Below, one piece after another: positions 1-34,509 of a stretch of 62,843 bases of DNA. The stretch comes from a virus (lineage: Duplodnaviria; Caudoviricetes). Positions within the stretch are counted from its first letter, which is position 1; the number at the start of each line of letters is the position of its first letter. The stretch covers positions 1 through 62,843 of IMG/VR virus record IMGVR_UViG_3300010362_000001. The stretch is one strand, 5' to 3'. Position numbers and translations under genes: made by a program. Under the pieces are notes generated by a model that was given only the letters and a program-made list of their open reading frames with translations, was not told the DNA's origin and searched no databases.

Positions 1-123
1 GCAGGGCGAGCAGGGCGCACGCGGCGAAAAGGGCGCGCAGGGCGAGCAAGGAATCGGCCTGATCGATTGCCGACTCGATCGTGCCAACTATGAACTTCGG
101 TTCGTGCTCAGCGACGGCGAGCA
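1..123. repeat. 123-bp exact direct repeat of 62721-62843 (circular-assembly overlap)
   Basis: Identical sequence at both ends; it falls inside a continuous ORF, so the molecule is circular (~62,720 bp). Confidence 0.95.
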
Positions 124-4203: not shown

Positions 4204-4569
4204 ATGGCGCAAAGATTCGCTGGCATCGCTTATCTCATGATCGACGGCGATCAATTGCCGCTGCGCGGCAACTTCACGGTGTCGCCGTCATCGGTCGAAC
4301 GGACGATGATTGCCGGACAAGATGGAGTCCACGGCTATCAGGAACTGCCCAGGGTGCCCTATATCGAGGGCGACATCTCGTTGACGCCGGAAGTCAATCT
4401 CGAAGACATCGAGGCGCAGACCGATGTCACCGTCGTTGCGCAACTCGCCAACGGCAAGCAATACACGCTGGCATCGGCAACATGTAAATCAGCGCTGGAA
4501 GCCAATACCCGCGACGGGCAGGCAAGGGTCCGTTGGGAAGGAATATGGTGCGAAGAAATAACGCTGTAA
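4204..4569 (+). CDS. Tail tube (Mu gpM-like)
   Basis: AGIAY..IDG, GQDGVHGY.E.P.VPYIE, ELANGK-like motif. Confidence 0.9.
   Translation: MAQRFAGIAYLMIDGDQLPLRGNFTVSPSSVERTMIAGQDGVHGYQELPRVPYIEGDISLTPEVNLEDIEAQTDVTVVAQLANGKQYTLASATCKSALEANTRDGQARVRWEGIWCEEITL

Positions 4570-5155: not shown

Positions 5156-5163
<8 letters not shown>
4960..5163 (+). CDS. -1 frameshift extension of the tail chaperone (gpE'/gpGT-like)
   Basis: T TTT TTT slippery heptamer at 4960-4966 in the chaperone frame; the -1 frame stays open to 5163 (YRLAREYHQNPNVFLEMPMSE). Confidence 0.75.
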
Positions 5164-8173
<3,010 letters not shown>

Positions 8174-22992: not shown

Positions 22993-24194
22993 CAGCGGCG
23001 ACCTTGCTGCAATTGGCAGGCAGATGCTCGTGGTTCGGCGGGCCGGACGACGAAGGAGTCAGCCCGAGCGAAGGGTTGGCATTCATCTACGAGTATGATC
23101 AGGCGCCATATCTATTTCTCGATCAGCAGCCGCCGGGCACGACAGGGCTGGCGCGTCGATTGAATCCCGACGTCTTCTATATCGCATGCCGATGGGACTA
23201 CGGCGTGACGCCGAAAGAGCTGCTGCGCGAAAGTGGCTATCGCGCGCTGGTACGCGCCGGCGACAAAGCGTTCCTGGCGTGGCCGGCGGACTGGGGGCCG
23301 CATGAGGACACCGGCCGCGTCGCTGACATCTCGCTAGGTTTGATGGAAGCGCTCGACATCGAGACCGACGATGTAATCGAGGTCATCTATCCGGCACCAG
23401 AAGAGGACACAGACATGACAACGCCGAAGCGAATGGTTTTGGATTTGTCGCATCACAACACAGTCGACGACTGGAATCAGATGGTCTCCGCCGGCATCAT
23501 CGGCATGATCCACAAGGCGAGCGAAGGCGACTACATGAGCGACGACAAGTATCCCGGCCGGCGCGATGGGTGCGCCGAGAGTGGCTTGTGCTGGGGTGCT
23601 TATCACTTCGCGACCAACGACCCGGTCGAGGCGCAGGTCGAGTTGTTCCTGTCGGCAGCGCAGCCCGACGACGACACGCTGATGGTGCTCGACTGGGAGC
23701 CCTACGGCTCGAAGCAGATGACCGTCGAGCAGGCGAAGCAATGGATCGAGATGGTCGAAGAGCGCACCGGCCGGCCCGGTGAGGTCATGATCTATTCCGG
23801 CAATTTGGCCAAGGAAGAGCTTGGCTCAAGCGACACGTTCTTCGGCGAGCGTCGGCTATGGCTGGCGCAATATGGCTCGTCGCCATCGGTCGAGCCGCCA
23901 TGGGACGAATATTGGCTGTGGCAATATTCCGATGGCGACGTCGGGCCTGAGCCGAAGGGTTGTCCCGGCTGCGGCGGCTATGTCGATACCAACAGCTTCG
24001 ACGGCACCGAATCCGAGCTGCGCGCGGAATGGGCAAGCGGCAGTGCAGAGCGGCCGAAGCCGCCGCGGCCGCCGCGACCGCCGCAGCCGGTCGAGGGCGT
24101 GGTGAACATGGCCGTGATCATACGCGCGCCCGAGGGCGTCACGGTGAACGTGCACGTCGAGCAGATCCCGGCATGGACCAGACGGTCCGGTTAA
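22989..24194 (+). CDS. Endolysin: N-terminal RlpA/DPBB-like domain + GH25 muramidase
   Basis: SWFGG...ADWGP...RVADIS; DLSHHN, KASEG, GAYHF, LDWE, LWLAQY, LWQYSD, VDTN. Confidence 0.85.
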   Translation: MTAATLLQLAGRCSWFGGPDDEGVSPSEGLAFIYEYDQAPYLFLDQQPPGTTGLARRLNPDVFYIACRWDYGVTPKELLRESGYRALVRAGDKAFLAWPADWGPHEDTGRVADISLGLMEALDIETDDVIEVIYPAPEEDTDMTTPKRMVLDLSHHNTVDDWNQMVSAGIIGMIHKASEGDYMSDDKYPGRRDGCAESGLCWGAYHFATNDPVEAQVELFLSAAQPDDDTLMVLDWEPYGSKQMTVEQAKQWIEMVEERTGRPGEVMIYSGNLAKEELGSSDTFFGERRLWLAQYGSSPSVEPPWDEYWLWQYSDGDVGPEPKGCPGCGGYVDTNSFDGTESELRAEWASGSAERPKPPRPPRPPQPVEGVVNMAVIIRAPEGVTVNVHVEQIPAWTRRSG

Positions 24195-24207
24195 CCCGGT
24201 AGCGGGA

Positions 24208-24420
24208 ATGGCGATGACGATGACCGATGCGGATTTTGCCGTTGCCGTCGATCATGCGTTGATGCGTGCCATCGAGAATCGTCTGACCGGTCTGGTCGAC
24301 GTGTTGATGAAGGAATGGCGTGACCCCGAGGCGGTTGACAGATTCAGGGAGGGGATGAAGCGCACCCGGGAGGTCTACGCGGCGGCGGCGAAGATATGCC
24401 GCGAGGAGCAGGAACCATGA
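24208..24420 (+). CDS. Hypothetical helical protein, paralogue of 22774-22992
   Basis: Visible similarity; ATGA overlap with the next gene. Confidence 0.6.
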   Translation: MAMTMTDADFAVAVDHALMRAIENRLTGLVDVLMKEWRDPEAVDRFREGMKRTREVYAAAAKICREEQEP

Positions 24421-24689
24421 ACCCCGGACCTGTTGAAGAAACCGGCAAGGTTGCCATTGGCGTTGTTGACGCCTTGAAGACTCAGCCCGTCACTCTGGCC
24501 ATGGTGATCTTCAATATCATCCTCTTGGGCGTCGTCTACTTCGGCATCGAGAACATGCGCACGCATCAGGCCAAAGTGCTGGAGAGCATCTTCGAGCACT
24601 CGGACCGGCTGTACAACTGCGGCAAGGCAGCGGGCAAGCAGGGTTATAAGCTGCAGTCCGATGAAACGAAGCCGGCGGAGCTAGATTAA
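24417..24689 (+). CDS. Single-TM protein, holin/spanin-like candidate
   Basis: PVTLAMVIFNIILLGVVYF hydrophobic helix; last gene of the late operon. Confidence 0.45.
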   Translation: MNPGPVEETGKVAIGVVDALKTQPVTLAMVIFNIILLGVVYFGIENMRTHQAKVLESIFEHSDRLYNCGKAAGKQGYKLQSDETKPAELD

Positions 24690-24699
24690 GAATCATTAG

Positions 24700-25203
24700 T
24701 CAGATTCGCCCCGTTCCGCGGCATCCCCAACATTGATGCGCAGCGAGCTTGCCCGCGCCGCCGCAGATCGGGCACGTCAGTGCGTCCGGTGTCGGCGATG
24801 CCTTGGCCGCTGCGGCCATGTCGATAGTCTGCACGTCCGGTGTCGGCGGGGCACTGCGGCGCAGCGCGGCGTGCAGGACATGCTGTTCCTGCTCGGTAAG
24901 GTGACGCGCCGCCGGATCGTGGATCTCAATCGTGACGGAACAGTCGACGCCGTCGAGCTTGTTGAAGCGGCCGGGCATTTGCGTGATCCCGCGCGCATCC
25001 ATCACCGGTGCGATGTCGGCGGCGTCGCGCGCGGGCACGAAGCCAAGCATGATCCAGTCCCAACTAACGGCGATGGCGTTCTTGTCGTGCGCGTTGTCAG
25101 GATCGCGCGCCAGCGTCAGCGATGCGTTGTCGTGAAGATTGCGCAAGATGTTGACGGCGCCGGGATGATGTTTCGCGCCGACGATGGCAACCGTGCGTCT
25201 CAT
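24700..25203 (-). CDS. HIRAN-domain protein with C-terminal Zn ribbon
   Basis: L.RDPDN.HDKNAIAV...LGFVP; CPICGG.G...CWGC.G.G. Confidence 0.8.
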   Translation of the reverse strand: MRRTVAIVGAKHHPGAVNILRNLHDNASLTLARDPDNAHDKNAIAVSWDWIMLGFVPARDAADIAPVMDARGITQMPGRFNKLDGVDCSVTIEIHDPAARHLTEQEQHVLHAALRRSAPPTPDVQTIDMAAAAKASPTPDALTCPICGGAGKLAAHQCWGCRGTGRI

Positions 25204-25280
25204 TTGGTCACTTCATTGGCGCGAGCAATTTCTTCGCTGATCTCCGCAACCACGCGGTCGATCGCGGCCGTGCGCCTTGC

Positions 25281-25520
25281 TCATGCGCGTCTCCGTTTCT
25301 GCGGTCGCTTCGGCCGCGGCGCCATCATGGCTTCCTGGTCGAGCAATTGCTGCATCGCCAGCTTGGTGCGCTCGGGGAGCGGCCAGCCTTGCTCGTACCG
25401 TATGATGCTGTGGCGGCTCAGTCCAAGGCGCTCGGCGAATTCACGTTGCGACAGGCCAAGCCGCGCGCGCGCGCGCTTGACGAAATCAGGCATCGGCACT
25501 TCGATCACCGGCATCGACAT
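25281..25520 (-). CDS. Xre-family HTH regulator
   Basis: RARLGLSQREFAERLGLSRHSIIRYEQG. Confidence 0.85.
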   Translation of the reverse strand: MSMPVIEVPMPDFVKRARARLGLSQREFAERLGLSRHSIIRYEQGWPLPERTKLAMQQLLDQEAMMAPRPKRPQKRRRA

Positions 25521-25560
25521 GGTCCCCATTCCAGCCCTTTTTTGGAATCGCATTAACAAT

Positions 25561-25577
25561 GTCGCATGATGCGACCA
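25561..25577. promoter_or_regulatory. Palindromic operator O1 (GTCGCATGATGCGAC) within the putative promoter of the Xre gene
   Basis: 7-1-7 palindrome just 3' of CTTGCG on the minus strand; 17-bp exact inverted copy at 31387-31403. Confidence 0.7.
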
Positions 25578-25709
25578 AACGCAAGGGCTGCGCATGAGGC
25601 TGGCAAGTTCTTGCCCAACTCTTTCTACGCAATCATACGCAGCGCGTGCTTAGTCGCCGTCTGCTACGGATGCCGCGTTGCAACCTCGAAAGAACTTGGA
25701 GGATCCCTG

Positions 25710-25856
25710 ATGAAGATGACTGTTTGGATTGTTGGCGCGTTCCTGACGATCGCGGCGGTCGGCGCCCTGGCAACAGAGGCGTGGGCGGCGTGCCCGGCGG
25801 GCACGCGGTATCAGTGCTATCCGAGCAACGGCAAGATGGTGTGCGGCTGCTTTTGA
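25710..25856 (+). CDS. Small secreted cysteine-rich peptide
   Basis: GGAGG RBS; signal peptide ending AWA; mature ACPAGTRYQCYPSNGKMVCGCF with 4 Cys; own terminator. Confidence 0.7.
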   Translation: MKMTVWIVGAFLTIAAVGALATEAWAACPAGTRYQCYPSNGKMVCGCF

Positions 25857-25879
25857 TCGAGCTGCTTTGTCCCAAACGG

Positions 25880-25911
25880 AGCCCCGGCCAGCTAGGCCGG
25901 GGCTTTTTTTT
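25880..25911 (+). terminator. Intrinsic terminator
   Basis: AGCCCCGGCC-AGCTA-GGCCGGGGCT followed by a T run. Confidence 0.9.
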
Positions 25912-26010
25912 GGCCTTCGCCGGCATTATATTTCTCAGAATCGCGGACCTCGGGGCGGACTCCAACCCGGACCGCGGCCGGACCGCGCGATTTGCAAGGT
26001 CGCGCGAGTC

Positions 26011-26053
26011 AAAAAAAATCCCCCGGTGAGCCTTGCGGCTCCCGGGGGATTTT
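26011..26053 (-). terminator. Intrinsic (probably bidirectional) terminator ending the MoxR operon
   Basis: AAAATCCCCCGG...CCGGGGGATTTT stem with an A run on the plus strand. Confidence 0.85.
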
Positions 26054-26077
26054 GATTTTTGGGGGACTGGAGATCCT

Positions 26078-26392
26078 TCACTCGTAATAGCGCGGGCCGC
26101 TGCTGCGCCCAAGATCGAGCAGGCGGTTGCCGACACGGCCGAGCATCTTCTGCTCGCGCTTGGTCAGGCCGATGGCTTCGATCCCGTCGTCCATGATGCC
26201 GGCCGCGAGGCCGCGGTTGAGCAAGCTCAATTCTTTGTCGCTCAGCACGACGACGTGATGTCGAGCGCCGATCTGCGAGATCCTCGCGTGCAAAGAATCG
26301 AGGCGGTCCCGATCGCCGTCATATGCGCCGGCACCGAGCATGCCGAGTGCTTCCCCGATGATCTTGAGATCGCGTCTGGTGAGAGAGGTCAT
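26078..26392 (-). CDS. Hypothetical protein (last gene of the MoxR operon)
   Basis: GAGG RBS, MTSLTRRDL...; internal LT/S.rE...L pattern three times. Confidence 0.6.
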   Translation of the reverse strand: MTSLTRRDLKIIGEALGMLGAGAYDGDRDRLDSLHARISQIGARHHVVVLSDKELSLLNRGLAAGIMDDGIEAIGLTKREQKMLGRVGNRLLDLGRSSGPRYYE

Positions 26393-26399
26393 TGGTTCC

Positions 26400-26789
26400 T
26401 CACAAGGCTTCGATCTTGCACTGCTTGAGCTGCAGGTCGCCGAACGTGACATCGTCGATGATGCCGCTGACCTGGATGCGCTGGCCCTTGTTCCACTCGA
26501 CGATCTTATCGAGCAGAGTCTGATCGGTGACGGTGCAATCGACGTTTCCGCCGATGCCACCATTGCCGATGTTCACACGGTAGCCGCCGCCGAACAGTCG
26601 AGCCCTGGCGTTGTGGAACGTCCAGGTGAACGCGATCGACTTGCCAGCGTAGTCGCGCGCGAAGCGGACTTCGTTGGCCTTGTAGGTGCCGATGGCTTTT
26701 TCGATGTCAGCCGGACCGTAATCGGCAGCCGACGCGTTCGACGCCGCGGCGATCGTGACGGCGACAAAGGCAAGCAAGAACTTTTTCAT
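26400..26789 (-). CDS. Secreted OB-fold protein (tRNA_anti-like family)
   Basis: Signal peptide; Y.ANEV.....Y.GK.I, C.......KGQ.I.V.G......L..C. Confidence 0.7.
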   Translation of the reverse strand: MKKFLLAFVAVTIAAASNASAADYGPADIEKAIGTYKANEVRFARDYAGKSIAFTWTFHNARARLFGGGYRVNIGNGGIGGNVDCTVTDQTLLDKIVEWNKGQRIQVSGIIDDVTFGDLQLKQCKIEAL

Positions 26790-26885
26790 CTCTGACTCCA
26801 TTGGTTGGGATTGTCCCGGTGCAAGGCCCGGGGTTCGTGTTCGGAATGAACACTATGACGGCGCCCGCAGGCGCCGCTGTAGTAC
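26790..26885 (-). repeat. Structured intergenic element, copy 5 (hairpin A + CUUGCA hairpin B + UGGAGUC RBS)
   Basis: Plus strand: tgactcca / cccggtgcaaggcccggg / actatgacggcgcccgcaggcgccgctgtagt. Confidence 0.85.
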
Positions 26886-27242
26886 TCACTCGTCGTTGCT
26901 CCCCGCAGGAATCGCCTGGGCAACGGCAGCAACACCAGCGTTGTGCACCTGGGTCTGCCGGATTGCTTCAATCAGCCGCTCGTTGTCGTTATGACGCGAG
27001 ATTGCCGACCGCGATACTGCGCAGAACACCCACGCAATCAGCCAGCATACGAAACTGCCGAGGAAACTGAAAAACGCAGGCACCCCGCCGAACATGGCCA
27101 GCAGTGTGAGCACGCAAAACGCGAAGCAGAGAAAGCGCCAAGCGGTGCCAGTCGGTGGGGTTGGCTTCATCAGCCCGATGCCGGAACACAGCAGCGGCAG
27201 GAAGATGATCACTAGGAAGAGAAGAACGGAAGGGTTTTCCAT
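26886..27242 (-). CDS. Membrane protein (3 predicted TM helices)
   Basis: Three hydrophobic segments, W.IAW motif reminiscent of superinfection-immunity proteins. Confidence 0.7.
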   Translation of the reverse strand: MENPSVLLFLVIIFLPLLCSGIGLMKPTPPTGTAWRFLCFAFCVLTLLAMFGGVPAFFSFLGSFVCWLIAWVFCAVSRSAISRHNDNERLIEAIRQTQVHNAGVAAVAQAIPAGSNDE

Positions 27243-27344
27243 TTGGTTTGACTCCTTTGGGTGTGGGTTGATTGCGCCCGTGCAAGCCGGGCCAGTGCTC
27301 GGATGGGCACTATGAGGCGGCGCCTAAAGCGCCGCCCTTAGTGC
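27243..27344 (-). repeat. Structured intergenic element, copy 4
   Basis: tgactcc / gcccgtgcaagccgggc / cactatgaggcggcgcctaaagcgccgcccttagtg (36 bp identical to 29889-29924). Confidence 0.9.
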
Positions 27345-28853
27345 TCAGTGGCTGCCGACGTCGATCGCCGGGGCGCCCCACGGGGCGGTTTCGATCATGC
27401 TGCGGACCGCGTCCGGATATCCGGTATAGGCCCACAGCACGTCGCACGGCGGTTCGCCATCGGCCGCGACGTCGTCGATGTACCCGTCGGTGAAGCAGAC
27501 GATCAGCGTCGGGTCTTCGATCTCGTCGCGTACGTAGTCGAACAAGGGCTTCAGCACCGTGCCGCCACCGCCGCGCGGGTCGAACTCGATCTCGTCGCCG
27601 TTGCGGTAGGTGTCGACCTTGGTGACGCGCGTGTCGCCGTAGACGACGACCGCCTCGTCGATGATGCCCTCGTCGAGGGCCGCCCGCGTCTCCGTCTCGA
27701 TGCAGCCGAGCGCGATGTCATCCATCGAGCCCGATGTGTCGATCAGGAACACGATGCGGTTGATGCCTTCGCGCTCGCGACCCGGCAGGTAGAGCCCGCC
27801 GCCGGCGAAGCGCCGGTTCGGCCGCGACCACGTTTCACGGGAAACGGCGCCCTGGTCGAAGTAGGCCCGGAGCGTCTCGCGCCAGTCTTGCGGCGGCTTG
27901 TCCGCCCGCTCGATCTCGCGCGTGACGTGGCCGGGAGCGTTGCCGCGCTTGGCCGCCAGTGATGCGGCCTGACGCAGGACGCGTTCCCAGGTGGAGTCAG
28001 CGTCGGACAGCCCGGCCGGCTCGTCGGCGGCGTCGAGAACCTCGCCGCAGCCGCCGGGATCGCCAGAGGTTCCGCCCGGTTCGCCGGCCTCGCCGGGCTC
28101 GCCAGCGGCCTCGGGGCTGCTTTCGCCACCCGTGCCGCTACCCTTGCCCGGCTCTTCGGAAGGCTCGCCAGCGGCCTCGCCAGCGTTGCCGCCGGCCTCG
28201 TCGCCATCGGTATCGCCTTCCTCTTCGCCGCCCTGGCCGTCAGCCTCGCCGGCCTCGTCGCCGCCCTCGTCGCCGGGAGAGTTGCCCGACTCCTTGCCAG
28301 CCTCGTCGCCTTCGTCTTGCTGGTCGCCGGCATCATCGTTGCCGGCATCGTCCTGCTCTTCGTCGGCGCCGCCGTTGCTCGGCTGATCGTCGTCGTCGTC
28401 CTCGCCGTCGCCTTGCTGCTGCTGCTGCTGCTGCTTGGCGCGGTCCAGCTCGCGCGCCCGGTAAATATCTTCGGCTGACCAGCCGCGATATTGCGGATCG
28501 ACGAGCGCGCCCTTGGGAAGGGTTACGCCTTCGTCCACGAGATCGATGTTGATCGCGTAGTCGGTGGCAATGTTCCATTCCTTCGGGTCGCGAGCACCGC
28601 GGCGCGAGTGATGCCGCCGCGCGTCGTGCTCCGACTCGTGCCGCTGCACGCCGAGCAGTTCGTTCTGCGTCAGCGTCGCGATGAAGTCGGGATTGTAGAA
28701 GTGCGTCTTGCCGTCCGTCGCCATCGTCGGAAATGCCCGCGACGGCTTCGGCGCGACGTTGGAAACCAGCACGCCATAGAACGTGTGGGCAGTGACCAGC
28801 TCGACGCGCGCCTTCAAGATGCGCTCGGCTGCAAGCCTGTCGGTGTCATTCAT
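27345..28853 (-). CDS. DUF2201-like metallopeptidase + acidic linker + vWA domain
   Basis: MATDG, HESEH (HExxH), WNIATDYAIN; IDTSGSM MIDAS, GGGGT, FTDGY. Confidence 0.9.
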   Translation of the reverse strand: MNDTDRLAAERILKARVELVTAHTFYGVLVSNVAPKPSRAFPTMATDGKTHFYNPDFIATLTQNELLGVQRHESEHDARRHHSRRGARDPKEWNIATDYAINIDLVDEGVTLPKGALVDPQYRGWSAEDIYRARELDRAKQQQQQQQGDGEDDDDDQPSNGGADEEQDDAGNDDAGDQQDEGDEAGKESGNSPGDEGGDEAGEADGQGGEEEGDTDGDEAGGNAGEAAGEPSEEPGKGSGTGGESSPEAAGEPGEAGEPGGTSGDPGGCGEVLDAADEPAGLSDADSTWERVLRQAASLAAKRGNAPGHVTREIERADKPPQDWRETLRAYFDQGAVSRETWSRPNRRFAGGGLYLPGREREGINRIVFLIDTSGSMDDIALGCIETETRAALDEGIIDEAVVVYGDTRVTKVDTYRNGDEIEFDPRGGGGTVLKPLFDYVRDEIEDPTLIVCFTDGYIDDVAADGEPPCDVLWAYTGYPDAVRSMIETAPWGAPAIDVGSH

Positions 28854-28955
28854 TGTCTGACTCCAGGTTTTGAATTGAAAGGCCGCGGTGCAAGTCCGCG
28901 GCAGTGCGGACTATCGGACGGCGCAACGCGGCGCCGTCCTGTAGTAAGGCCCGTT
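28854..28955 (-). repeat. Structured intergenic element, copy 3
   Basis: tgactcca / gccgcggtgcaagtccgcggc / actatcggacggcgcaacgcggcgccgtcctgtagt. Confidence 0.85.
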
Positions 28956-29828
28956 TCAGCCAAGTAGCGACTCGACATCCTTCAGGATGTCGTCGGCGCT
29001 TTTCTGCACGCTGGCGCGAACCGTGTCGTCCTTGCGCAGCGTTTCCGCTTCTTCGACGCACAGTTCGCGCTTGATCCGCTCGGCGACCGCATCGAACTTC
29101 GGGTCGTCGGCGAAGTTGAAGGCAGGCAGGAGATCGGCCAACTCGCGCACATTGTCGACCAGCGAGCCGGTGAAAAAGCTGTTGTCGTTCTTGTACGCCT
29201 TCAGCTTTTCCGACATGTGGCCGATCACCTTGGCGATCTCGTCGACCGTGTCGCGCATCGCGCCGTCGAGCACCTTGGCGTTGGTTGCATCCATCTCGCG
29301 ACGGATATCGTCCAGCATGTCCTTGTCGAGCACGTCGGACCGGAAGTCGTCCGAATCCGGCACCGGGAACGTTTTGGTGTCCAGATTGAACTTCGACCGG
29401 ATCTCGTCTGGCGACGGATAGTCGTTCGCGTCGAACAGGCCGTTGAGCGCCCGGCGGCGCTCCGCGACGAAGTCGGGATAGCCGGCGCAGAACTCGTCGA
29501 CCGCTTCGTTGAACTCGCGCTTGAGCACGCGAAATTCCTCGGCGAACTTTGCGTGCAGCCTGTTCGGCAGAATGCGCAAGCCCTGATCGGCCCACGGCTT
29601 GGTCAGCCGATAGTGCAGATCGCGCGCCTTGCTGACCAGTCCGTTGATGCGCTGCAAGCGCTTGGCCTCGATCAGGAGCTTGTTGTAGCGGCCGGCGTCT
29701 TCGCTGGCGCCGTGCTCGGCATTGACCTTTTGCGTGACTTTCTTGTCGAGCTTGCGCGCCGTCCACTGCGAGATGTCGACCGAGACCAGCGTTGCCTTGC
29801 GGCAAAGCGGGTTCATGATCTTCGTCAT
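28956..29828 (-). CDS. DUF3150-like helical protein
   Basis: LVSV.IS.WTARK.DK, T.PW...G.RILP, F...DYPS...IRSKF; sits between MoxR and vWA genes. Confidence 0.65.
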   Translation of the reverse strand: MTKIMNPLCRKATLVSVDISQWTARKLDKKVTQKVNAEHGASEDAGRYNKLLIEAKRLQRINGLVSKARDLHYRLTKPWADQGLRILPNRLHAKFAEEFRVLKREFNEAVDEFCAGYPDFVAERRRALNGLFDANDYPSPDEIRSKFNLDTKTFPVPDSDDFRSDVLDKDMLDDIRREMDATNAKVLDGAMRDTVDEIAKVIGHMSEKLKAYKNDNSFFTGSLVDNVRELADLLPAFNFADDPKFDAVAERIKRELCVEEAETLRKDDTVRASVQKSADDILKDVESLLG

Positions 29829-29925
29829 GGTGATGACTCCATTTGATTGGTTGGCGCCCGGTGCAAGGCCGGGCGAGCGTTCGATGAACACTATGAGGCG
29901 GCGCCTAAAGCGCCGCCCTTAGTGA
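29829..29925 (-). repeat. Structured intergenic element, copy 2
   Basis: tgactcca / cgcccggtgcaaggccgggcg / cactatgaggcggcgcctaaagcgccgcccttagtg. Confidence 0.9.
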
Positions 29926-30945
29926 TCACTGCATGAGCACGGCGCTGTTGTTGACGGCCCAGGTTGAATAGGCCGGCGTGTCCTTCAGCGTCGCGTCGCG
30001 CACGGTCGCATCGTGCACGAGCAGAACCTGCTGCTCGGCCGGAAGGCGATCGGCATACTTGATGATCTGGCTCCAGTTCTTCCGCGTCGCGAGACGCGCA
30101 AGGCCGGTGCAGACCGCGTATTTTTCGCTCGGCTCGACCGGCACCTTGGCGCCCATCGGGTCGCGTACGATGTCTTCGAGCGAACCGAGTGACCGATAGA
30201 GCTGCAGGAAGCCTTCCAGCTCCGCGGCAACGTCGTCGCCGATATGCGCCGCGAACAGCCGCTGGCGATGTGCCTTCGGCGCGTTCACGTGCTCGGCGGC
30301 CCGGGTCAAGGACCGCGCCGACGGGAACGCGTTCTCGTCGCCGCGCGGTGCCCGGTAGATCAGTTCGCGCCGGAACCGCACGAAGGCGACCATCTCCGGC
30401 GCGACGTTGTTCGCCGTGGCCCAGGTGGCCCAGGCCGCGACGTCCGGCGTCACATAGAGATGGGCGAAGCGGTTGCGGATATGCGTCGGCATGCGCTGCG
30501 CCGCGGCACGGTCAGTGACGCGGTTGCCGGCGGCGATCACGCGCCAGCCTTTCGGCAGGCGATAGTCGCCGACCTTGCCTTCGAGGATCAGGCCGGCGAG
30601 CACCGCTTGCATTTGCGGCGTCGCTTGGTTGATCTCGTCGGTGAACAGGTAGCCATCGGCGCCGTCGCGCTCGGCTTGCGGCAGCTCGTCAGGCACCAGC
30701 CACTTGGTCGTGCCCGTCGCCAGATCCGCAACCGGGATGCCGCGCAAGTCGACCGGCTCGCGCAGCGCGGCGTGGAACTCAAGGACCGTGCGGCCCTTGC
30801 GTTCGCCAAGCTGGCGCACGATCGAGGATTTGCCAACGCCGGGCGGGCCCCAAAGCATGACGGGCGCGCCGGCATCGGTCAGAAGTTCGAGCAGCACCGC
30901 GGCTTCCGCAATGGTGCACTCGATTTCTCGGAGAGTGTTTTGCAT
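29926..30945 (-). CDS. MoxR-like AAA+ ATPase
   Basis: Walker A GPPGVGKS, DLRGIP, Walker B LFTDEINQA, AAGNR, NRF. Confidence 0.92.
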   Translation of the reverse strand: MQNTLREIECTIAEAAVLLELLTDAGAPVMLWGPPGVGKSSIVRQLGERKGRTVLEFHAALREPVDLRGIPVADLATGTTKWLVPDELPQAERDGADGYLFTDEINQATPQMQAVLAGLILEGKVGDYRLPKGWRVIAAGNRVTDRAAAQRMPTHIRNRFAHLYVTPDVAAWATWATANNVAPEMVAFVRFRRELIYRAPRGDENAFPSARSLTRAAEHVNAPKAHRQRLFAAHIGDDVAAELEGFLQLYRSLGSLEDIVRDPMGAKVPVEPSEKYAVCTGLARLATRKNWSQIIKYADRLPAEQQVLLVHDATVRDATLKDTPAYSTWAVNNSAVLMQ

Positions 30946-31038
30946 TTTCGGACTCCATTGATGTTGCGCCGTTGCAAGACGGCGCGTGTTGCGAGGCAAC
31001 ACGTTAGAGCGGCGCCAACCGGGCGCCGCTCGGTACGT
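30946..31038 (-). repeat. Structured intergenic element, copy 1 (with one extra small hairpin)
   Basis: gactcca / gcgccgttgcaagacggcgc / gagcggcgccaaccgggcgccgctc. Confidence 0.8.
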
Positions 31039-31275
31039 ATTGTCTTTAAGAGTCTCTCAGTCCCCCACACTCTCGCGTGGGTCTTTCATCCCCTGCACCC
31101 GCAAGGCGCGCGCGGGTCTTTGTCGAGGGATGACTGTGGCCGTTACCTCGGGCTGGCATGGGCCGGTGACCGGTTCACCATGCTCCCTCGGGCTCTACCA
31201 TCCGGGCTTCGTTCCGGTACGCGGGCGGCGCGGGCGTTTGTCAGTCCTGAAAACCTCCGTTGTCTCAACGACAAC
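31039..31275 (-). ncRNA. Putative structured leader RNA of the MoxR operon
   Basis: No minus-strand ORF of 60 aa or more starts above 31070; many nested helices, including a GAGA tetraloop stem; lies between the promoter and the first gene. Confidence 0.55.
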
Positions 31276-31279
31276 CGAG

Positions 31280-31308
31280 ATATAGTGTAGCATGGTGCAA
31301 CATGCAAG
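31280..31308 (-). promoter_or_regulatory. Sigma70-type promoter CTTGCA-N17-CTATAT with operator O2 (31287-31301) in the spacer
   Basis: Near-consensus rhizobial RpoD promoter; spacer GTTGCACCATGCTAC matches O1 at 12/15. Confidence 0.8.
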
Positions 31309-31386
31309 AGCCGGCGAAGATTTTTTTTGATTTATTAAGTCCCGGAAAAATATAGAGATTTCAGACGCCGCTGCGTATTTTCAGTA

Positions 31387-31403
31387 TGGTCGCATCATGC
31401 GAC
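31387..31403. promoter_or_regulatory. Palindromic operator O3
   Basis: TGGTCGCATCATGCGAC, exact reverse complement of 25561-25577. Confidence 0.65.
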
Positions 31404-31865
31404 CTGCTTGCGCCGCCGCGGCGCGTGGTAGCGACGTAGGGGCGGCGGCGGGGAGTCGACCAGCGTCAGGAAATCTGCCGGCTGGCAGTGCAGCGCTCGC
31501 GCGGCGAGTTCGGTGAATTCATGATTGAGGCGGATGCCGCCATTCTCATACGCGCTGATGGTCTTGCGGCTCTTGCCGGTCTCGCGGGCGAGCCATCCCT
31601 GTGAGCGGCCGCGGTCCTCGCGGATGGCCTTGAGCCGGCGCCCGATGCGCTTGCTTCCCCCCGGTGGCGACGTCGCCTTGTCGTCGAGCGGCTTCAGCTT
31701 GGCGCGCGCATGGCGGCGGTGGGCGAGGCCGTCATACGCCTTGGCGATCTCCAGCATGGTTTCGACGATATGGTTGTCGTTGCCTTTGTATTTGCGCGCA
31801 ATCACGCGCGCCTCGGCGGCACGCTCTGACCAGTCGAGCTGGATGAGCTTTCCGACCTGTGGCAT
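31395..31865 (-). CDS. Xre HTH regulator with an N-terminal helical-hairpin domain
   Basis: RLKAIREDRGRSQGWLARETGKSRKTISAYENG; N-terminal W.ERA.EAR...ML.IA..YD.LA. Confidence 0.75.
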   Translation of the reverse strand: MPQVGKLIQLDWSERAAEARVIARKYKGNDNHIVETMLEIAKAYDGLAHRRHARAKLKPLDDKATSPPGGSKRIGRRLKAIREDRGRSQGWLARETGKSRKTISAYENGGIRLNHEFTELAARALHCQPADFLTLVDSPPPPLRRYHAPRRRKQVA

Positions 31866-32143
31866 TGCGAGCCAAGCGAGCAAGCGAATTTGCTGGAGTC
31901 CAATTGTGCCCAACATTGCGGAATTGTGAAAGGTTCAATTCAGAGGCCGCGGCACGATGTCCTCAGGTCAACCCCGACGACACGATCAGGGCAATACCTG
32001 ATGACAAAATGGCAGCAAGCCCACCGCCAGCGACAATTCGCGATCGATCATTCCGGGGAGATTCCGCGTTTCGCTGCGCCGCGCAATGACGACGCGATAT
32101 GTCAACTATGCGGAATCGCATAAGTACGCAGGGAATGCGCATC

Positions 32144-32386
32144 TCAGAGTTGCTGTTGTGTCTGCTTTGCGCGCCGGCGTCGCATGATCTCGGCGAGCTT
32201 GTCGTAAAGGTCCGCGATGTGCAGCATCGTATCGCGCGCTCGACGATCGACGAGAAAAGCGATCTGCCGCGCCTCGTCAGCGCGCTCGCGCCAGTACTTG
32301 GGATGGAGATGTGGCTTCTTTTCGATAGTACGGGGTGCGGACGTTCGTCGCGCTGGCCTAGAGCTGCGTTTGCGCGCGGTCTTCAT
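32144..32386 (-). CDS. Small helical-hairpin protein (stand-alone copy of the domain in 31395-31865)
   Basis: YWRERADEARQIA...DTMLHIADLYDKLA. Confidence 0.7.
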   Translation of the reverse strand: MKTARKRSSRPARRTSAPRTIEKKPHLHPKYWRERADEARQIAFLVDRRARDTMLHIADLYDKLAEIMRRRRAKQTQQQL

Positions 32387-32457
32387 AGCAAGAAGTCGCT
32401 GTCATGCAGTTCGAAGCATGATGTCGGATGCCCGACGCAGCGCGGTATCATATTCCT

Positions 32458-32697
32458 TCACGCTCCGGCGTCGCGAATTTTCCTCAAAGCCTTGATCGGA
32501 TCGAAACCGATCGCGTCAGCGATGCGGAAAAACTCGATCACGTCGATTCGGCGCTGGCCGCTTTCGATGCGTGCCATGAACGACTGGTGTTCGCCTAACG
32601 CGGTGGCGACATCAGATTGAAACTGATTTCGCGCTTCCCGTTCTTCGCGGATCAGGCGAACCATGAATCGATGCCGGGGTGTTCCGATGGTCCGCAC
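32458..32697 (-). CDS. Xre HTH regulator
   Basis: QSDVATALGEHQSFMARIESGQRRIDVIEF; GTG start assumed. Confidence 0.8.
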   Translation of the reverse strand: MRTIGTPRHRFMVRLIREEREARNQFQSDVATALGEHQSFMARIESGQRRIDVIEFFRIADAIGFDPIKALRKIRDAGA

Positions 32698-32819
32698 TCC
32701 CGATTTTATAGATGCTATTTCCCGATATCTAAACTTCGTAAGTAACTGTTGCAATGGTCTCATTCTACCCAAATACCATAACAGCGCTTCGAAGATCAGC
32801 CTGAGATGAAGGGCCGCAC

Positions 32820-33104
32820 ATGACCAACACATACATCGCAAGGTGGTGGGATCCGCACCGGAGGGCGCCGCCCGGCGTGCCGTTGGTCACTTGGCCGATG
32901 AATGTCTACCATGATGGCCGGGTGCAGCGATACGCGGTGCTGCGCGGACCGATCAGGGATGGCGCGCTGGATGTGTTCGCCGCCGCGACCGTGGCTGTTT
33001 ATGCCTATGAGAGCGAGTTGCCGCTGGCGCCGTTCGATCTCATAGACCAATGGGCAGCGCAACATGCAACGCCGGACGCGCCGCCCATGTTTGGCCGGCG
33101 ATAG
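32820..33104 (+). CDS. Hypothetical protein next to attP
   Basis: ATG with AGGG upstream; no recognisable motif. Confidence 0.4.
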   Translation: MTNTYIARWWDPHRRAPPGVPLVTWPMNVYHDGRVQRYAVLRGPIRDGALDVFAAATVAVYAYESELPLAPFDLIDQWAAQHATPDAPPMFGRR

Positions 33105-33121
33105 CCCTTCGGCCGCATGAG

Positions 33122-33351
33122 TTTCCGGGGGACTTTCCGGGGGACAAAAATCGGTGCTTCGGCTAAGTCTTTGATTTTATGGTGGGCGCTCACAGGATCG
33201 AACTGTGGACCTCTCCCGTGTGAAGGAGCAGCGCGGCCAAAAAAACCAGCGATTTCAGTGCGCATTTGTCGAGTTTGAGCCAGATTGTCACGTTTCGTTC
33301 CGGGGTTTCCCGGGGATAACCCGGGGACAAGAACGTTCTGTTCTCCCGGGA
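33122..33351. mobile_element. attP: core 33180-33226 = 3' half of tRNA-Val(CAC), flanked by arm-type repeats
   Basis: Minus strand reads CCTTCACACGGGAGAGGTCCACAGTTCGATCCTGTGAGCGCCCACCA; TTTCCGGGGGAC x2 (33122-33145), CCGGGG repeats at ~33300-33350; IHF-like TAAGTCTTTGATT; directly after the int stop. Confidence 0.9.
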
Positions 33352-33360
33352 GGGAACGCT

Positions 33361-34509
33361 TTATCCGTTGCCCCGCATCCTCGCCCAGGCGGCATCGACC
33401 ACGTTCCGCAGATGGCCCATGGCGTGATGACCATAGGTGTCCTGGATGACCTTCTCGCTGGTGCCGAGCATGCCGGCTACGTCGAAAGTGGACATGCCGG
33501 CCTGGAGCAACAGCGTCGCGCATGTGTGCCTGAGAACATGCGGCGTCGCGTCGGGACCTAACCCCGCCATGATCCTGGTGCCATCCCAGGAACGCCGAAG
33601 CTGCGACGCGATCGGTTTGCCGTCGTACTCGACGACGTACTGAGTCGAGAGTCGGCGCCAGCGTCGTAAATGCGCCTTCAGCTTTTTGGGAATCAGCGTC
33701 GGCGTACGACGCTTGTTTGTCTCGATGGCATCTTGCGGTCGGCGATAGAGAATGCCGGCGTCGAGATCGAACCAGCCGCCGACGGTATTGCGCATCCATT
33801 GCAGCCGCAACATCGCATCATGTCGGGTGCCGGTATAGAACCCGATCAGAATGAAGCGGGCGAGATGGCGATTGATCCTGAACTTGTTGCGGGTGCCGTC
33901 GCGATTGAAGCCGAGCGCGGCCCACAACAGCGCAGCGACTTCCTTACGCGTGAAATATCGCTCGCGACGCTCAGCCACTCTCGGCATCGAGACGATGATC
34001 GGCCGATCGAGCACCTGCGGTTTCCTTACTGCGTGGCACCAATTGAGCGCAGCCGACAGCGTGACCAGCTCCCGCTTGGCTGTCGACAGCTTGATCTTGC
34101 GTCCGTTCCTTTTCGCGCGTCGGTCGGTTTGCGCGCAACGAAACTTGACCCATTCGTCGATCGTGTCCTTGCTGATTTCGGACACATAGCGTTGACCCCA
34201 AAATTCGGTAAGCCGCTCGACTTCACCGGCGATGCGTTCTTGGGAATCTTCGCGCGGGAGCGTCGGAGCATATTTCTCACAATACAATGACAAGCAATCT
34301 CCGATCAGGACTTGATCGGGACGACCGTTGCCGAAGGACGGTTGTCTGTTTTCGATGATGTATTCCGCGAGCGCGATTTCAGCTTTCGCGCGCTCGCCAT
34401 CGCCCGCGCCTGTGCTAATTTCTTTCTCTCTGTCTCTGATGATCCAGGCGCCTCGGTTGCGGCCCCGGGCGTCTCTCCACACGAGTCTTGGCGGTTTGGT
34501 AGGGCGCAT
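33361..34509 (-). CDS. int: Tyrosine integrase
   Basis: TGTR, HVLRHT, YGH catalytic motifs; adjacent attP. Confidence 0.95.
   Translation of the reverse strand: MRPTKPPRLVWRDARGRNRGAWIIRDREKEISTGAGDGERAKAEIALAEYIIENRQPSFGNGRPDQVLIGDCLSLYCEKYAPTLPREDSQERIAGEVERLTEFWGQRYVSEISKDTIDEWVKFRCAQTDRRAKRNGRKIKLSTAKRELVTLSAALNWCHAVRKPQVLDRPIIVSMPRVAERRERYFTRKEVAALLWAALGFNRDGTRNKFRINRHLARFILIGFYTGTRHDAMLRLQWMRNTVGGWFDLDAGILYRRPQDAIETNKRRTPTLIPKKLKAHLRRWRRLSTQYVVEYDGKPIASQLRRSWDGTRIMAGLGPDATPHVLRHTCATLLLQAGMSTFDVAGMLGTSEKVIQDTYGHHAMGHLRNVVDAAWARMRGNG

What the first reader, a model, noticed from the sequence alone, without database searches (positions are those of the whole stretch)
26790..31038. Five copies of a two-hairpin RNA element precede five consecutive genes of the MoxR-vWA operon
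Seen: each long intergenic gap (30946-31038, 29829-29925, 28854-28955, 27243-27344, 26790-26885) has the same ~100-nt layout on the coding (minus) strand. First comes hairpin A (lower stem ACUA/UAGU, or ACGU/ACGU in copy 1; small internal loop; upper stem ending CGGCGC-variable loop-GCGCCG). Then hairpin B, a GC stem whose apex always carries CUUGCA. Then an A/C-rich spacer, a GGAGUC RBS and AUG. Stems differ between copies but keep pairing (GGACGGCGC/GCGCCGUCC vs GAGCGGCGC/GCGCCGCUC; CCCGG/CCGGG vs GCCGCGG/CCGCGGC), which argues for selection on structure. Hairpin A is 36/36 identical at 27308-27343 and 29889-29924, bracketing the DUF3150+vWA pair. I did not notice the element elsewhere in the window. 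Inference: a gene-by-gene post-transcriptional control system. Hairpin A could be an RNase III-type processing site (as in T7 early mRNA) and the CUUGCA loop a protein- or RNA-binding translational operator. The repeats could also act as homology for cassette gain/loss, which would explain unrelated cargo genes joining the operon. I do not recognise it as a known motif.
Basis: partly seen in the sequence, partly recalled or inferred. Interest (0 to 1): 0.88.

Follow-up and report, generated by a model that had tools for sequence, protein, structure and literature searches.

The report
Structured repeat between phage operon genes
A soil phage puts the same ~100-base, three-hairpin RNA-like element in front of every gene of one operon, and related phages use it as the joint between swappable small genes, a kind of regulatory gene-cassette junction not described before.

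Summary
The window is a complete temperate phage record. Its minus-strand MoxR-ATPase / DUF3150 / DUF2201-vWA operon holds exactly five copies of a ~100-nt element and none elsewhere.

Rfam has no match. Uncultured relatives carry 5-8 copies each, always clustered in this one operon. Across 45 and 52 distinct copies the stems covary strongly, and G-U far outnumbers A-C, so folding is on the sense strand. It is not a sigma-70 promoter: 1 of 81 copies has a -10. It is not a host REP-like repeat.

Non-core genes behind the element differ between phages, and one cargo gene sits in different slots.

Best reading: a structured intercistronic mRNA leader that doubles as a recombination joint, analogous to T4 PeSLs but without a promoter. 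RNase III cleavage and an operator role remain untested.

The parts
31280..31308 (-). Likely operon promoter: CTTGCA-N17-CTATAT, preceded by an A-run
   Evidence: Read. It resembles the S. meliloti sigma-70 consensus CTTGAC-N17-CTATAT (PMC2873474, passages). The simple E. coli-type scan did not list it. Promoter function is inferred.
31046..31279 (-). Untranslated leader, about 230 nt, between the promoter and copy 1
   Evidence: No Rfam match. Relatives have a different, mutually conserved leader.
30943..31045 (-). Element copy 1, before the MoxR ATPase. Hairpin A 31001-31038, hairpin M 30986-31002, hairpin B 30966-30985 with loop CUUGCA 30973-30978, GGAGUC 30951-30956, ATG 30943-30945.
   Evidence: CM R1 70.4 bits. 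MFE structure..
29926..30945 (-). MoxR-type AAA ATPase gene, 339 aa
   Evidence: Pfam AAA_5 and others. phrog_1297, E 1.3e-79.
29826..29930 (-). Element copy 2, before DUF3150. Stop TGA 29926-29928, hairpin A 29890-29923, hairpin M 29876-29892, loop CUUGCA 29862-29867, ATG 29826-29828.
   Evidence: CM 76.8 bits..
28956..29828 (-). DUF3150 gene, 290 aa
   Evidence: Pfam PF11348, E 5.4e-6.
28851..28952 (-). Element copy 3, before the vWA gene; degenerate. Hairpin A 28910-28945. An M-like pairing 28893-28912 overlaps hairpin B 28882-28902. Loop CUUGCA 28889-28894.
   Evidence: Lowest CM score of the five, 51.1 bits..
27345..28853 (-). DUF2201 metallopeptidase-like plus vWA gene, 502 aa, with an acidic low-complexity insert
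   Evidence: Pfam DUF2201_N 4.1e-39 and DUF2201 5.3e-11. phrog_1314.
27240..27349 (-). Element copy 4, before the membrane-protein gene. Hairpin A 27309-27342, hairpin M 27293-27312, loop CUUGCA 27281-27286.
   Evidence: CM 71.9 bits..
26886..27242 (-). Cargo gene 1: 118-aa hydrophobic protein with no family
   Evidence: No homologue among the other element-led ORFs.
26787..26890 (-). Element copy 5, before the secreted-protein gene. Hairpin A 26852-26883, hairpin M 26837-26853, loop CUUGCA 26820-26825.
   Evidence: CM 65.9 bits..
26400..26789 (-). Cargo gene 2: 129-aa protein with a signal-peptide-like N-terminus and a tRNA_anti-like OB domain
   Evidence: Pfam PF12869, E 7.4e-7. No homologue among the other element-led ORFs.

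Best explanation
The five repeats are copies of a structured intercistronic leader of about 100 nt. It is transcribed as part of one polycistronic mRNA from the promoter-like site at 31280-31308.

On the sense RNA each copy folds into three hairpins:
- Hairpin A starts 2 nt after the upstream stop codon. It has a conserved 5-bp base, CACUA/UAGUG, an internal loop and a GC-rich top.
- Hairpin M (AGUGUUC...GAACACU) shares its AGUG with the base of A, so A-long and M are alternative states.
- Hairpin B has a free-to-vary stem that presents a fixed CUUGCA loop.

A G-poor unstructured spacer, a strong Shine-Dalgarno sequence (GGAGUC) and the ATG follow.

I propose that the unit gives every cistron, including newly acquired foreign ORFs, the same self-contained translation start. 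Stable hairpins on the 5' side would insulate that start from neighbouring sequence. They would also probably mark sites of endonucleolytic processing and act as 5'/3' stability caps. The CUUGCA loop would be the contact for a still unknown trans-acting factor shared by all these phages or their hosts.

At the DNA level the same ~100 bp of repeated homology serves as the joint at which ORF-plus-element cassettes are gained, lost and moved.

Shown: repetition, conservation, covariation, sense-strand bias, restriction to this operon, and cargo turnover at the joints. Inferred: transcription as one mRNA, processing, insulation of translation, factor binding, and recombination as the cause of the turnover.
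For: - The window holds exactly five copies, all in one operon on one strand.
- In five whole relatives' records the copies number 6, 7, 6, 5 and 8. In each record they cluster in one 4-7 kb stretch on one strand.
- First covariation set, 45 distinct copies: 90.7% of stem cells are paired against 66.5% in shuffles. 197 cells have changes on both sides against 56.5 in shuffles and 27-54 with slid partners. 0 of 500 shuffles reach the observed values.
- Second set, 52 distinct copies from metagenome contigs: 91.8% against 69.3%, and 212 against 62.8.
- Hairpin A's lower stem was not part of the model, yet pair 14-91 shows AU 23 / GC 15 with 2 unpaired.
- G-U/U-G against A-C/C-A in stems: 55:15 and 72:17, binomial p 1.7e-6 and 3e-9. 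This fits folding of the sense strand.
- The upstream stop codon ends within 10 nt of the element in 27 of 38 junctions, and exactly 2 nt before ACUA in 17 of 38.
- The loop is CTTGCA or CTTGCT in 82 of 86 distinct copies, while stem B varies from 4 to 7 bp in 75 of those 82.
- The core trio of genes is preceded by the element in all 8 lineages examined. The 22 non-core element-led ORFs fall into 21 clusters.
- With the metagenome loci added, 55 non-core ORFs fall into 41 clusters.
- One cargo family sits between MoxR and DUF3150 in L032 but after the vWA gene in L048.
- L043 differs from L004 (MoxR 83.6% nt identity) by one 101-aa ORF plus one element. The single L004 element resembles L043's left element on its 5' side and the right one on its 3' side.
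Against: - There are no RNA data. No listed sequencing run is RNA, so transcription, ends and processing are unobserved.
- The alignments used for the counts were fitted to the model's structure, which inflates pairing. The lower-stem result and the slid-partner control mitigate this only in part.
- Copies are related by descent, so the shuffle controls overstate significance.
- Hairpin A has 13-17 bp, short for RNase III.
- Predicted accessibility of the SD-AUG stretch is only moderate (mean 0.50). It does not change when a ribosome footprint is imposed at the upstream stop: 0.497 against 0.512, n=83, p=0.12. The A/M switch therefore has no demonstrated output.
- The loop hexamer equals the -35 hexamer of the operon's own promoter. 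The RNA reading does not explain this.
- No factor for the loop is identified.
Confidence: 0.55

Rival explanations
1. The elements are DNA-level regulatory cassettes like T4-type PeSLs. Each would carry its own promoter, with CTTGCA as the -35 box, plus a terminator or attenuator hairpin, so every gene would be transcribed separately.
For: - The layout matches PeSLs: about 100 bp from stop codon to ATG, a stem-loop, SD and start codon, flanking ORFans (PMC2839356, passages).
- CTTGCA is also the -35 hexamer of the operon's own promoter-like site in the window and in L005.
- In some relatives hairpin B is followed by a U-rich run. Window copy 3's hairpin B was listed as terminator-like.
Against: - Only 1 of 81 copies has a -10-like hexamer 16-19 nt after CTTGCA.
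- The distance from CTTGCA to the conserved GGAGUC varies from 16 to 25 nt in the window alone. A transcript starting downstream of a -10 placed there would lack the SD.
- The sigma-54 spacing GG-N10-GC is not met, read by eye.
- No RNA polymerase was found among the 10 ORFs scanned. Not all ORFs were scanned.
- Window hairpin A is not followed by a U-tract.
Confidence: 0.1
2. The elements are mainly recombination sites of an integron-like cassette array: single-stranded DNA hairpins or plain homology. They would have no role in the RNA.
For: - Arrays of ORF-plus-element units with very diverse small ORFs.
- The same cargo gene in different slots.
- A one-cassette difference between relatives, with a chimeric joint.
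- A tyrosine integrase gene lies 2.3 kb upstream of the operon.
- Some copies within one genome share identical hairpin A sequences.
Against: - The integrase scores 20.3 bits against the integron-integrase model, whose cut-off is 265.
- The element includes the SD and ATG at one end and the stop codon at the other. This speaks for an expression role.
- The core trio keeps the elements in all 8 lineages even where no cargo intervenes.
- Plain homology needs neither three covarying stems nor a fixed loop.
- The fold is favoured on the sense strand. In integrons, attC folds on the bottom strand (recalled).
Confidence: 0.15
3. The elements act on the elongating RNA polymerase, as repeated attenuators or as nut/put-like antitermination signals that set read-through gene by gene.
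For: - Hairpins with a conserved loop and variable stems resemble boxB-type sites (recalled).
- There is a two-to-three hairpin RNA of about 70 nt upstream of each gene.
- U-rich tracts follow hairpin B in some relatives.
Against: - Known nut and put sites occur once or twice per genome just downstream of early promoters, not before every gene (recalled).
- The window copies lack U-tracts after either hairpin, except copy 3.
- No N- or Q-like gene was identified, though this was not searched systematically.
Confidence: 0.08
4. The A/M alternative pairing is a ribosome-sensing switch. A ribosome stopping at the upstream stop codon melts the base of hairpin A and hairpin M forms. This would couple the fate of the downstream cistron (translation or cleavage) to translation of the upstream one.
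For: - The stop codon is 2 nt from the base of hairpin A in 17 of 38 junctions.
- Among 46 evaluable copies, the long form of A is predicted to dominate in 33 and M in 11.
- Imposing a ribosome footprint at the stop raises the mean probability of M from 0.31 to 0.93.
- Both the lower stem of A and the inner pairs of M covary.
Against: - Predicted SD-AUG accessibility does not change with the footprint, so no output of the switch is visible in silico.
- First copies of the operon, including window copy 1, have hairpin A but no upstream ORF.
- All of this rests on thermodynamic prediction.
Confidence: 0.12

Closest known systems
PeSLs (promoter-early stem-loops) of T4-type phages (PMC2839356, passages read; PMC4122927, abstract read)
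   Same: [quoted passage not shown] They contain a stem-loop, are repeated many times in a region rich in small ORFans, and lie at the boundaries of insertions, deletions and replacements between related phages.
   Different: PeSLs are defined by a consensus sigma-70 promoter and a terminator hairpin. Here there is no -10 box (1 of 81) and no U-tract after hairpin A. Instead there are three covarying hairpins with a fixed loop, confined to one operon that also holds conserved core genes. Sequence and hosts are unrelated.
SAS / ESAS repeats of Cluster K mycobacteriophages (PMC3203893 and PMC12699233, passages read)
   Same: An asymmetric conserved motif that includes the SD just upstream of start codons of a subset of non-structural genes. 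About half of these are preceded by an imperfect inverted repeat with a variable spacer. All are in one orientation, and the function is still unknown.
   Different: The sequence differs (GGGATAGGAGCCC against GGAGUC(AC)). SAS/ESAS has one inverted repeat whose arms are conserved in sequence, not three hairpins with compensatory change. Those sites are spread over half a genome, and no link to cassette shuffling was reported in the passages read.
RNase III processing sites between phage T7 early genes (recalled; general substrate rules from PMC3867540, passages read)
   Same: A repeated hairpin with a lower stem, internal loop and upper stem between consecutive cistrons of one phage transcript. 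Cleavage in such internal loops leaves a 3' hairpin that stabilises the upstream mRNA.
   Different: Hairpin A has 13-17 bp against an ideal of 22 bp. Two further hairpins and a fixed loop have no T7 counterpart. Cleavage is untested.
Integron attC sites and cassette arrays (recalled)
   Same: An array of promoterless ORFs, each with a hairpin-forming repeat. Cargo is highly variable, and conservation lies in structure rather than sequence.
   Different: There is no integron integrase. The element carries the SD and ATG, it folds on the sense strand, and it flanks conserved core genes too.

Membership tests
Any Rfam 15 family | Match to a curated covariance model | tested here: not met
   Window 24000-34000 at E<=10: the only hits on the elements are two chance hits of 18.7 bits on hairpin A, against a gathering score of 80. 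Relatives L005, L021 and L033 at E<=0.1: 0 hits.
PeSL (T4-type promoter/terminator cassette) | Consensus sigma-70 promoter (-35 and -10) inside the cassette | tested here: not met
   1 of 81 copies has a -10-like hexamer 16-19 nt after CTTGCA.
PeSL (T4-type promoter/terminator cassette) | Stem-loop that terminates or attenuates transcription | tested here: inconclusive
   Stable hairpins are present. The terminator scan lists only copy 3's hairpin B, 1 of 5 copies. There is no functional test.
PeSL (T4-type promoter/terminator cassette) | Spans stop codon to SD and ATG, flanks variable ORFans, and marks indel boundaries between relatives | tested here: met
PeSL (T4-type promoter/terminator cassette) | Formation of cassette mini-circles | not testable with these tools
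   Needs inverse PCR on phage DNA.
SAS/ESAS (Cluster K mycobacteriophages) | 13-bp motif GGGATAGGAGCCC at start codons, with 17-bp imperfect inverted repeats upstream | tested here: not met
   The copies carry GGAGTC(AC) and three different hairpins. The motif definition is from PMC3203893.
T7-type RNase III site | Double-helical hairpin of about two turns with an internal loop at the target site | tested here: inconclusive
   Hairpin A has a lower stem of 5-7 bp, an internal loop and an upper stem of 8-10 bp. The ideal is 22 bp, and many cellular substrates have under 20 bp (PMC3867540).
T7-type RNase III site | Cleavage by RNase III | not testable with these tools
   No RNA run is listed.
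Integron (attC array) | Integron-type integrase next to the array | tested here: not met
   The window integrase scores 20.3 bits against TIGR02249, cut-off 265.
Host REP/BIME/RIME-like dispersed repeat | Many copies scattered over bacterial chromosomes | tested here: not met
   - An exact M+B pattern scanned over one genome of each of 185,579 species gave 9 stretches. Only L028, a 2.7-kb contig of a soil MAG, is confirmed by the model.
- That MAG holds 1 hit in all.
- 1 of 151 genomes of its class has a hit, and that one is the same MAG. Only 26 candidates per genome were scored.
- Within phage records, all copies sit in one operon.
tRNA-like element / anticodon-arm mimic | Cloverleaf found by ARAGORN; 7-nt loop of the form YU-NNN-RN | tested here: not met
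   ARAGORN finds 0 genes in the window. The loop of hairpin B is 6 nt in 36 copies and 7 nt in 33 of 82.

The most novel reading that the evidence does not exclude
This phage lineage runs an integron-like gene-cassette system whose joints are RNA machines rather than recombinase sites. Each cassette would bring a plug-and-play leader with three functions:
- It senses termination of the upstream cistron through the bistable hairpin A / hairpin M switch.
- It is cut into monocistronic, hairpin-capped mRNAs.
- It recruits a factor through the CUUGCA loop. That hexamer is identical to the -35 box of the operon's own promoter, so the loop may mimic a -35 element and bind the sigma subunit, or a phage regulator that also acts at the promoter.
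Probability: 0.12. Interest if true: 0.85.

Novelty: new variant of a known kind. Interest (0 to 1): 0.62.

Why it matters
If the reading holds, this adds a well-supported structured RNA motif to the few repeated intercistronic elements known in phages. About 86 distinct copies were found, with clear covariation. It also gives a second, independent example, after the T4 PeSLs, of a regulatory repeat that doubles as the joint for shuffling small accessory genes. Here the example comes from temperate phages of soil bacteria and has no promoter.

The element could explain how foreign ORFs become expressed at once after insertion into an operon. It offers a compact natural insulator part for polycistronic design in alphaproteobacteria. 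The fixed loop and the A/M alternative pairing are concrete handles for finding the factor and the signal involved.

Tried and rejected
- **Sigma-70 promoter in each element.** Rejected: 1 of 81 copies has a -10, and the spacing to GGAGUC varies.
- **Sigma-54 promoter.** TTGCA resembles the -12 box, but the GG is not 10 nt upstream of the GC in any window copy (read by eye).
- **ECF-type promoters.** Considered by eye only; no consistent spacing was seen.
- **Intrinsic terminator after each gene.** No U-tract follows hairpin A. The scan lists only copy 3's hairpin B.
- **tRNA-like or anticodon-arm mimic.** ARAGORN finds 0 genes. Loop length is not fixed at 7 nt.
- **Closing helix between the stop-codon flank (GUGAY) and GUCAC after the SD.** 24 of 45 copies can form 4 or 5 of 5 pairs, but both sides are conserved strings without compensatory change, and the window copies mostly lack GUCAC. 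Left open, not claimed.
- **Translational coupling through SD unmasking.** No change in predicted accessibility.
- **Within-genome homogenisation against positional orthology.** The picture is mixed and the script stopped early on a locus with one copy. No claim is made beyond the identical hairpin A pairs.
- **Leader upstream of copy 1.** The alignment of five leaders gave a weak consensus fold, -4.4 kcal/mol. Not pursued.
- **Cultured relatives.** The 5.1-kb region has one trivial 73-nt hit among phage records. The MoxR protein has no hit of 60% identity or more in phages (best listed 35.3%) or plasmids (best listed 37.2%).
- **RNA evidence.** No RNA holder is listed among the sequencing runs.
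- **Literature.** Searches for the motif or a description of it found only the analogues cited and nothing on this element. Supplements were not seen. Those of PMC2839356 and PMC3203893 hold motif alignments that could refine the comparison.

Full report
**What the window is.**
- It is a complete IMG/VR virus record of 62,843 bp with a 123-bp direct terminal repeat (family D8).
- It encodes a tail sheath, a large terminase, a head protein fused to a protease, a primase/helicase, a tyrosine integrase and Cro/CI-type HTH proteins. It is therefore a temperate myovirus-like phage.
- DNA runs that hold it are soil metagenomes.
- No cultured phage or plasmid is close. The MoxR protein has no hit of 60% identity or more; the best hits listed are 35.3% and 37.2%.

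**The operon on the minus strand.**
- A promoter-like CTTGCA-N17-CTATAT at 31308-31280. For comparison, the rhizobial consensus is CTTGAC-N17-CTATAT (PMC2873474).
- A leader of about 230 nt.
- A MoxR-type AAA ATPase, 30945-29926.
- DUF3150, 29828-28956.
- A DUF2201 metallopeptidase-like/vWA protein, 28853-27345.
- A 118-aa hydrophobic protein, 27242-26886.
- A 129-aa secreted OB-fold protein, 26789-26400.

**Observation.** All five intergenic stretches carry the element as described.
- ACTA-N18-34-TAGT occurs four times, only at copies 2-5, against 0.42 expected. Copy 1 has ACGU/ACGU.
- Of the 30 CTTGCA hexamers in the window, the five copies have flanking stems of 5-7 bp. One coding-region site is the only other with 5 bp or more.
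- The 36/36 identity of hairpin A in copies 2 and 4 is real.
- Minimum free energies lie 2.6 to 5.4 standard deviations below shuffles.
- A covariance model built later finds these five copies. Its only other window hit at E<=1 is a weak reverse-strand hit on hairpin A.

**Anatomy, refined with relatives.**
- Four IMG/VR loci encode a MoxR at 67-69% identity and carry 6-7 copies each.
- An exact-pattern scan found 15 stretches on 11 viral contigs. Ten of those contigs are confirmed by the model.
- The full unit, 5' to 3', is:
  - the upstream stop codon, usually TGA inside AGUGAUCACUA;
  - hairpin A, with lower stem CACUA/UAGUG, an internal loop and a GC-rich upper stem;
  - hairpin M, AGUGUUC-N3-5-GAACACU;
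  - hairpin B, a 4-7 bp stem of free sequence with loop CUUGCA;
  - a spacer without stable structure, A/C-rich in the window and UUUCUCGAAA-like in some relatives;
  - GGAGUC(AC), then 3-7 nt, then AUG.
- ViennaRNA places M in the minimum-energy fold of copies 1 and 2 and the extended hairpin A in copies 4 and 5.

**Is the structure selected, and on which strand?**
- Model R1 was built from 35 copies with hairpin A (upper stem), M and B as the structure. It retrieved 48 matches, 45 of them distinct, from ten loci.
- On that alignment 90.7% of stem cells pair, against 66.5% in shuffles. 197 cells have changes on both sides, against 56.5 in shuffles and 27-54 with slid partners. 21 of 22 pairs show compensatory change.
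- A second set came from 58 of 61 metagenome loci. It gave 54 matches in 21 loci, 52 of them distinct, and the same picture: 91.8% against 69.3%, and 212 against 62.8.
- These alignments are fitted to the model, and the copies are related by descent. The shuffle counts therefore overstate significance.
- The lower stem of hairpin A was not in the model, yet it covaries. Pair 14-91 is A-U in 23 copies, G-C in 15, and unpaired in 2.
- In the stems G-U/U-G outnumber A-C/C-A by 55:15 and 72:17. This is expected if the sense strand folds, and not if the antisense strand or a protein-bound duplex were the object of selection.

**Distribution.**
- In five whole phage records the copies number 6, 7, 6, 5 and 8. 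In each they lie in one 4-7 kb stretch on one strand.
- The exact M+B pattern was scanned across one genome of each of 185,579 prokaryote species. It gave nine stretches, and only one is confirmed: a 2.7-kb contig in a soil alphaproteobacterial MAG. That MAG has no further copy.
- None of 150 other genomes of its class had a hit, with the caveat that only 26 candidates per genome were scored.
- The element is thus not a host REP-like repeat. It belongs to this operon of an uncultured phage group.
- An alphaproteobacterial host is an inference from that MAG and from the promoter type.

**What lies behind the elements.**
- In eight lineages the core trio is always present, and each of its genes is preceded by an element. 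The other 22 element-led ORFs, of 15 to 215 aa, form 21 clusters.
- With the metagenome loci added, 55 non-core ORFs form 41 clusters. Some pairs are the same phage seen twice.
- Cargo sits before MoxR, between MoxR and DUF3150, or after the vWA gene.
- One cargo family lies between MoxR and DUF3150 in L032 and after the vWA gene in L048.
- L043 and L004 share MoxR at 83.6% nt identity and differ by one 101-aa ORF plus one element. The single L004 joint looks like L043's left element on its 5' side and the right element on its 3' side.
- Window copy 1 shares its 5' flank (GACAAUAC), its GUGUUGC/GCAACAC form of M and its CGAAAAUG end with the first copies of L003 and L005. Those copies lead a 61-65-aa gene that the window lacks.
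- These patterns match what was described for PeSLs in T4-type phages (PMC2839356; PMC4122927).

**What it is not.**
- No Rfam family matches.
- It is not a sigma-70 promoter: 1 of 81 copies has a -10-like hexamer.
- It is not an intrinsic terminator.
- It is not tRNA-like.
- It is not an integron: the integrase scores 20.3 bits against a cut-off of 265.

**Mechanism.**
- I commit to a structured intercistronic mRNA leader that gives each cistron a uniform, insulated translation start. It probably also defines processing and stability boundaries. The CUUGCA loop would be a recognition site for an unknown factor, and the repeat would be the homology at which cassettes are exchanged.
- The stop codon lies 2 nt from hairpin A's base in 17 of 38 junctions.
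- A modelled ribosome footprint at the stop shifts the ensemble from hairpin A-long to M. The mean probability of M rises from 0.31 to 0.93 over 46 copies. This suggests a termination-sensing switch.
- The predicted SD accessibility does not change, however: 0.497 against 0.512, n=83, p=0.12. The output of the switch is unknown.
- That the loop hexamer equals the operon promoter's -35 hexamer is unexplained.
- RNase III cleavage at hairpin A remains possible. The helix has 13-17 bp against an ideal of 22 (PMC3867540), and there are no RNA data.

**Comparison and novelty.**
- The closest analogues are T4 PeSLs, the SAS/ESAS repeats of Cluster K mycobacteriophages, whose function is still unknown (PMC3203893; PMC12699233), the T7 RNase III sites, and integron attC arrays.
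- The element fails the defining features of each. It is best filed as a new variant of the known kind 'repeated regulatory intergenic cassette of phages'.
- Literature searches found no description of it. Supplements were not available.

Noticed in passing
window 1-123 and 62721-62843: A 123-bp exact direct terminal repeat. The record is a complete phage genome, or a circular assembly overlap (D8).
   Followed up: partly
window 31280-31308 (-); L005 about 555-585: The operon's promoter-like site uses CTTGCA as its -35 hexamer, the same hexamer as the loop of hairpin B. L005 has CTTGCA-N18-TATAAT and L004 has CTTGCG-N17-TATAAT upstream of their operons. Unexplained coincidence, or a lead.
   Followed up: partly
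L004 about 4240-4499; L005 about 600-875; L021 4596-4890 (-); L033 7888-8190 (-): Relatives share a conserved leader of about 250 nt upstream of the first element, with blocks such as CTGTTTGACAATTCG, CATAGTCGCC, GGCATTGCC and GAGCCCGACGC. There is no Rfam match. The window's leader (31046-31279) is only loosely similar. It may be a second structured RNA.
   Followed up: partly
window 30951-30956, 29835-29840, 28857-28862, and the GGAGTC of copies 4 and 5: The conserved GGAGTC contains GANTC, the target motif of the alphaproteobacterial CcrM methylase (recalled). GANTC lies within the last 22 nt of 67 of 86 distinct copies. The L021 lineage has AAGGTCAC instead.
   Followed up: partly
window 5156-8173, 8181-10409 (+); 61969-62390 (+): Two adjacent large genes carry long GGC/Gly-rich repeats and share repeated blocks. 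A collagen-like 9-nt periodic repeat lies near the right end, probably in tail or fibre proteins.
   Followed up: no
window 25842-25918 (+): A weak sub-threshold Rfam hit (suhB/mmgR, 28.5 bits against a gathering score of 41). It coincides with a strong terminator-like hairpin at 25878-25906 followed by a T-run. This is most likely just a terminator.
   Followed up: no
window 28040-28430 (-), inside the vWA gene: The DUF2201 protein has a long acidic, Gly/Glu/Asp-rich low-complexity insert that begins with a CAG (Gln) run. phrog_1314, which it matches at 1.8e-87, is labelled 'HNH endonuclease', which does not fit the Pfam domains.
   Followed up: no
L021 1826-1933 (-): One copy has the middle hairpin in reversed polarity (UGCACU...AGUGCA instead of AGUG...CACU) and scores only 29 bits.
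   Followed up: no
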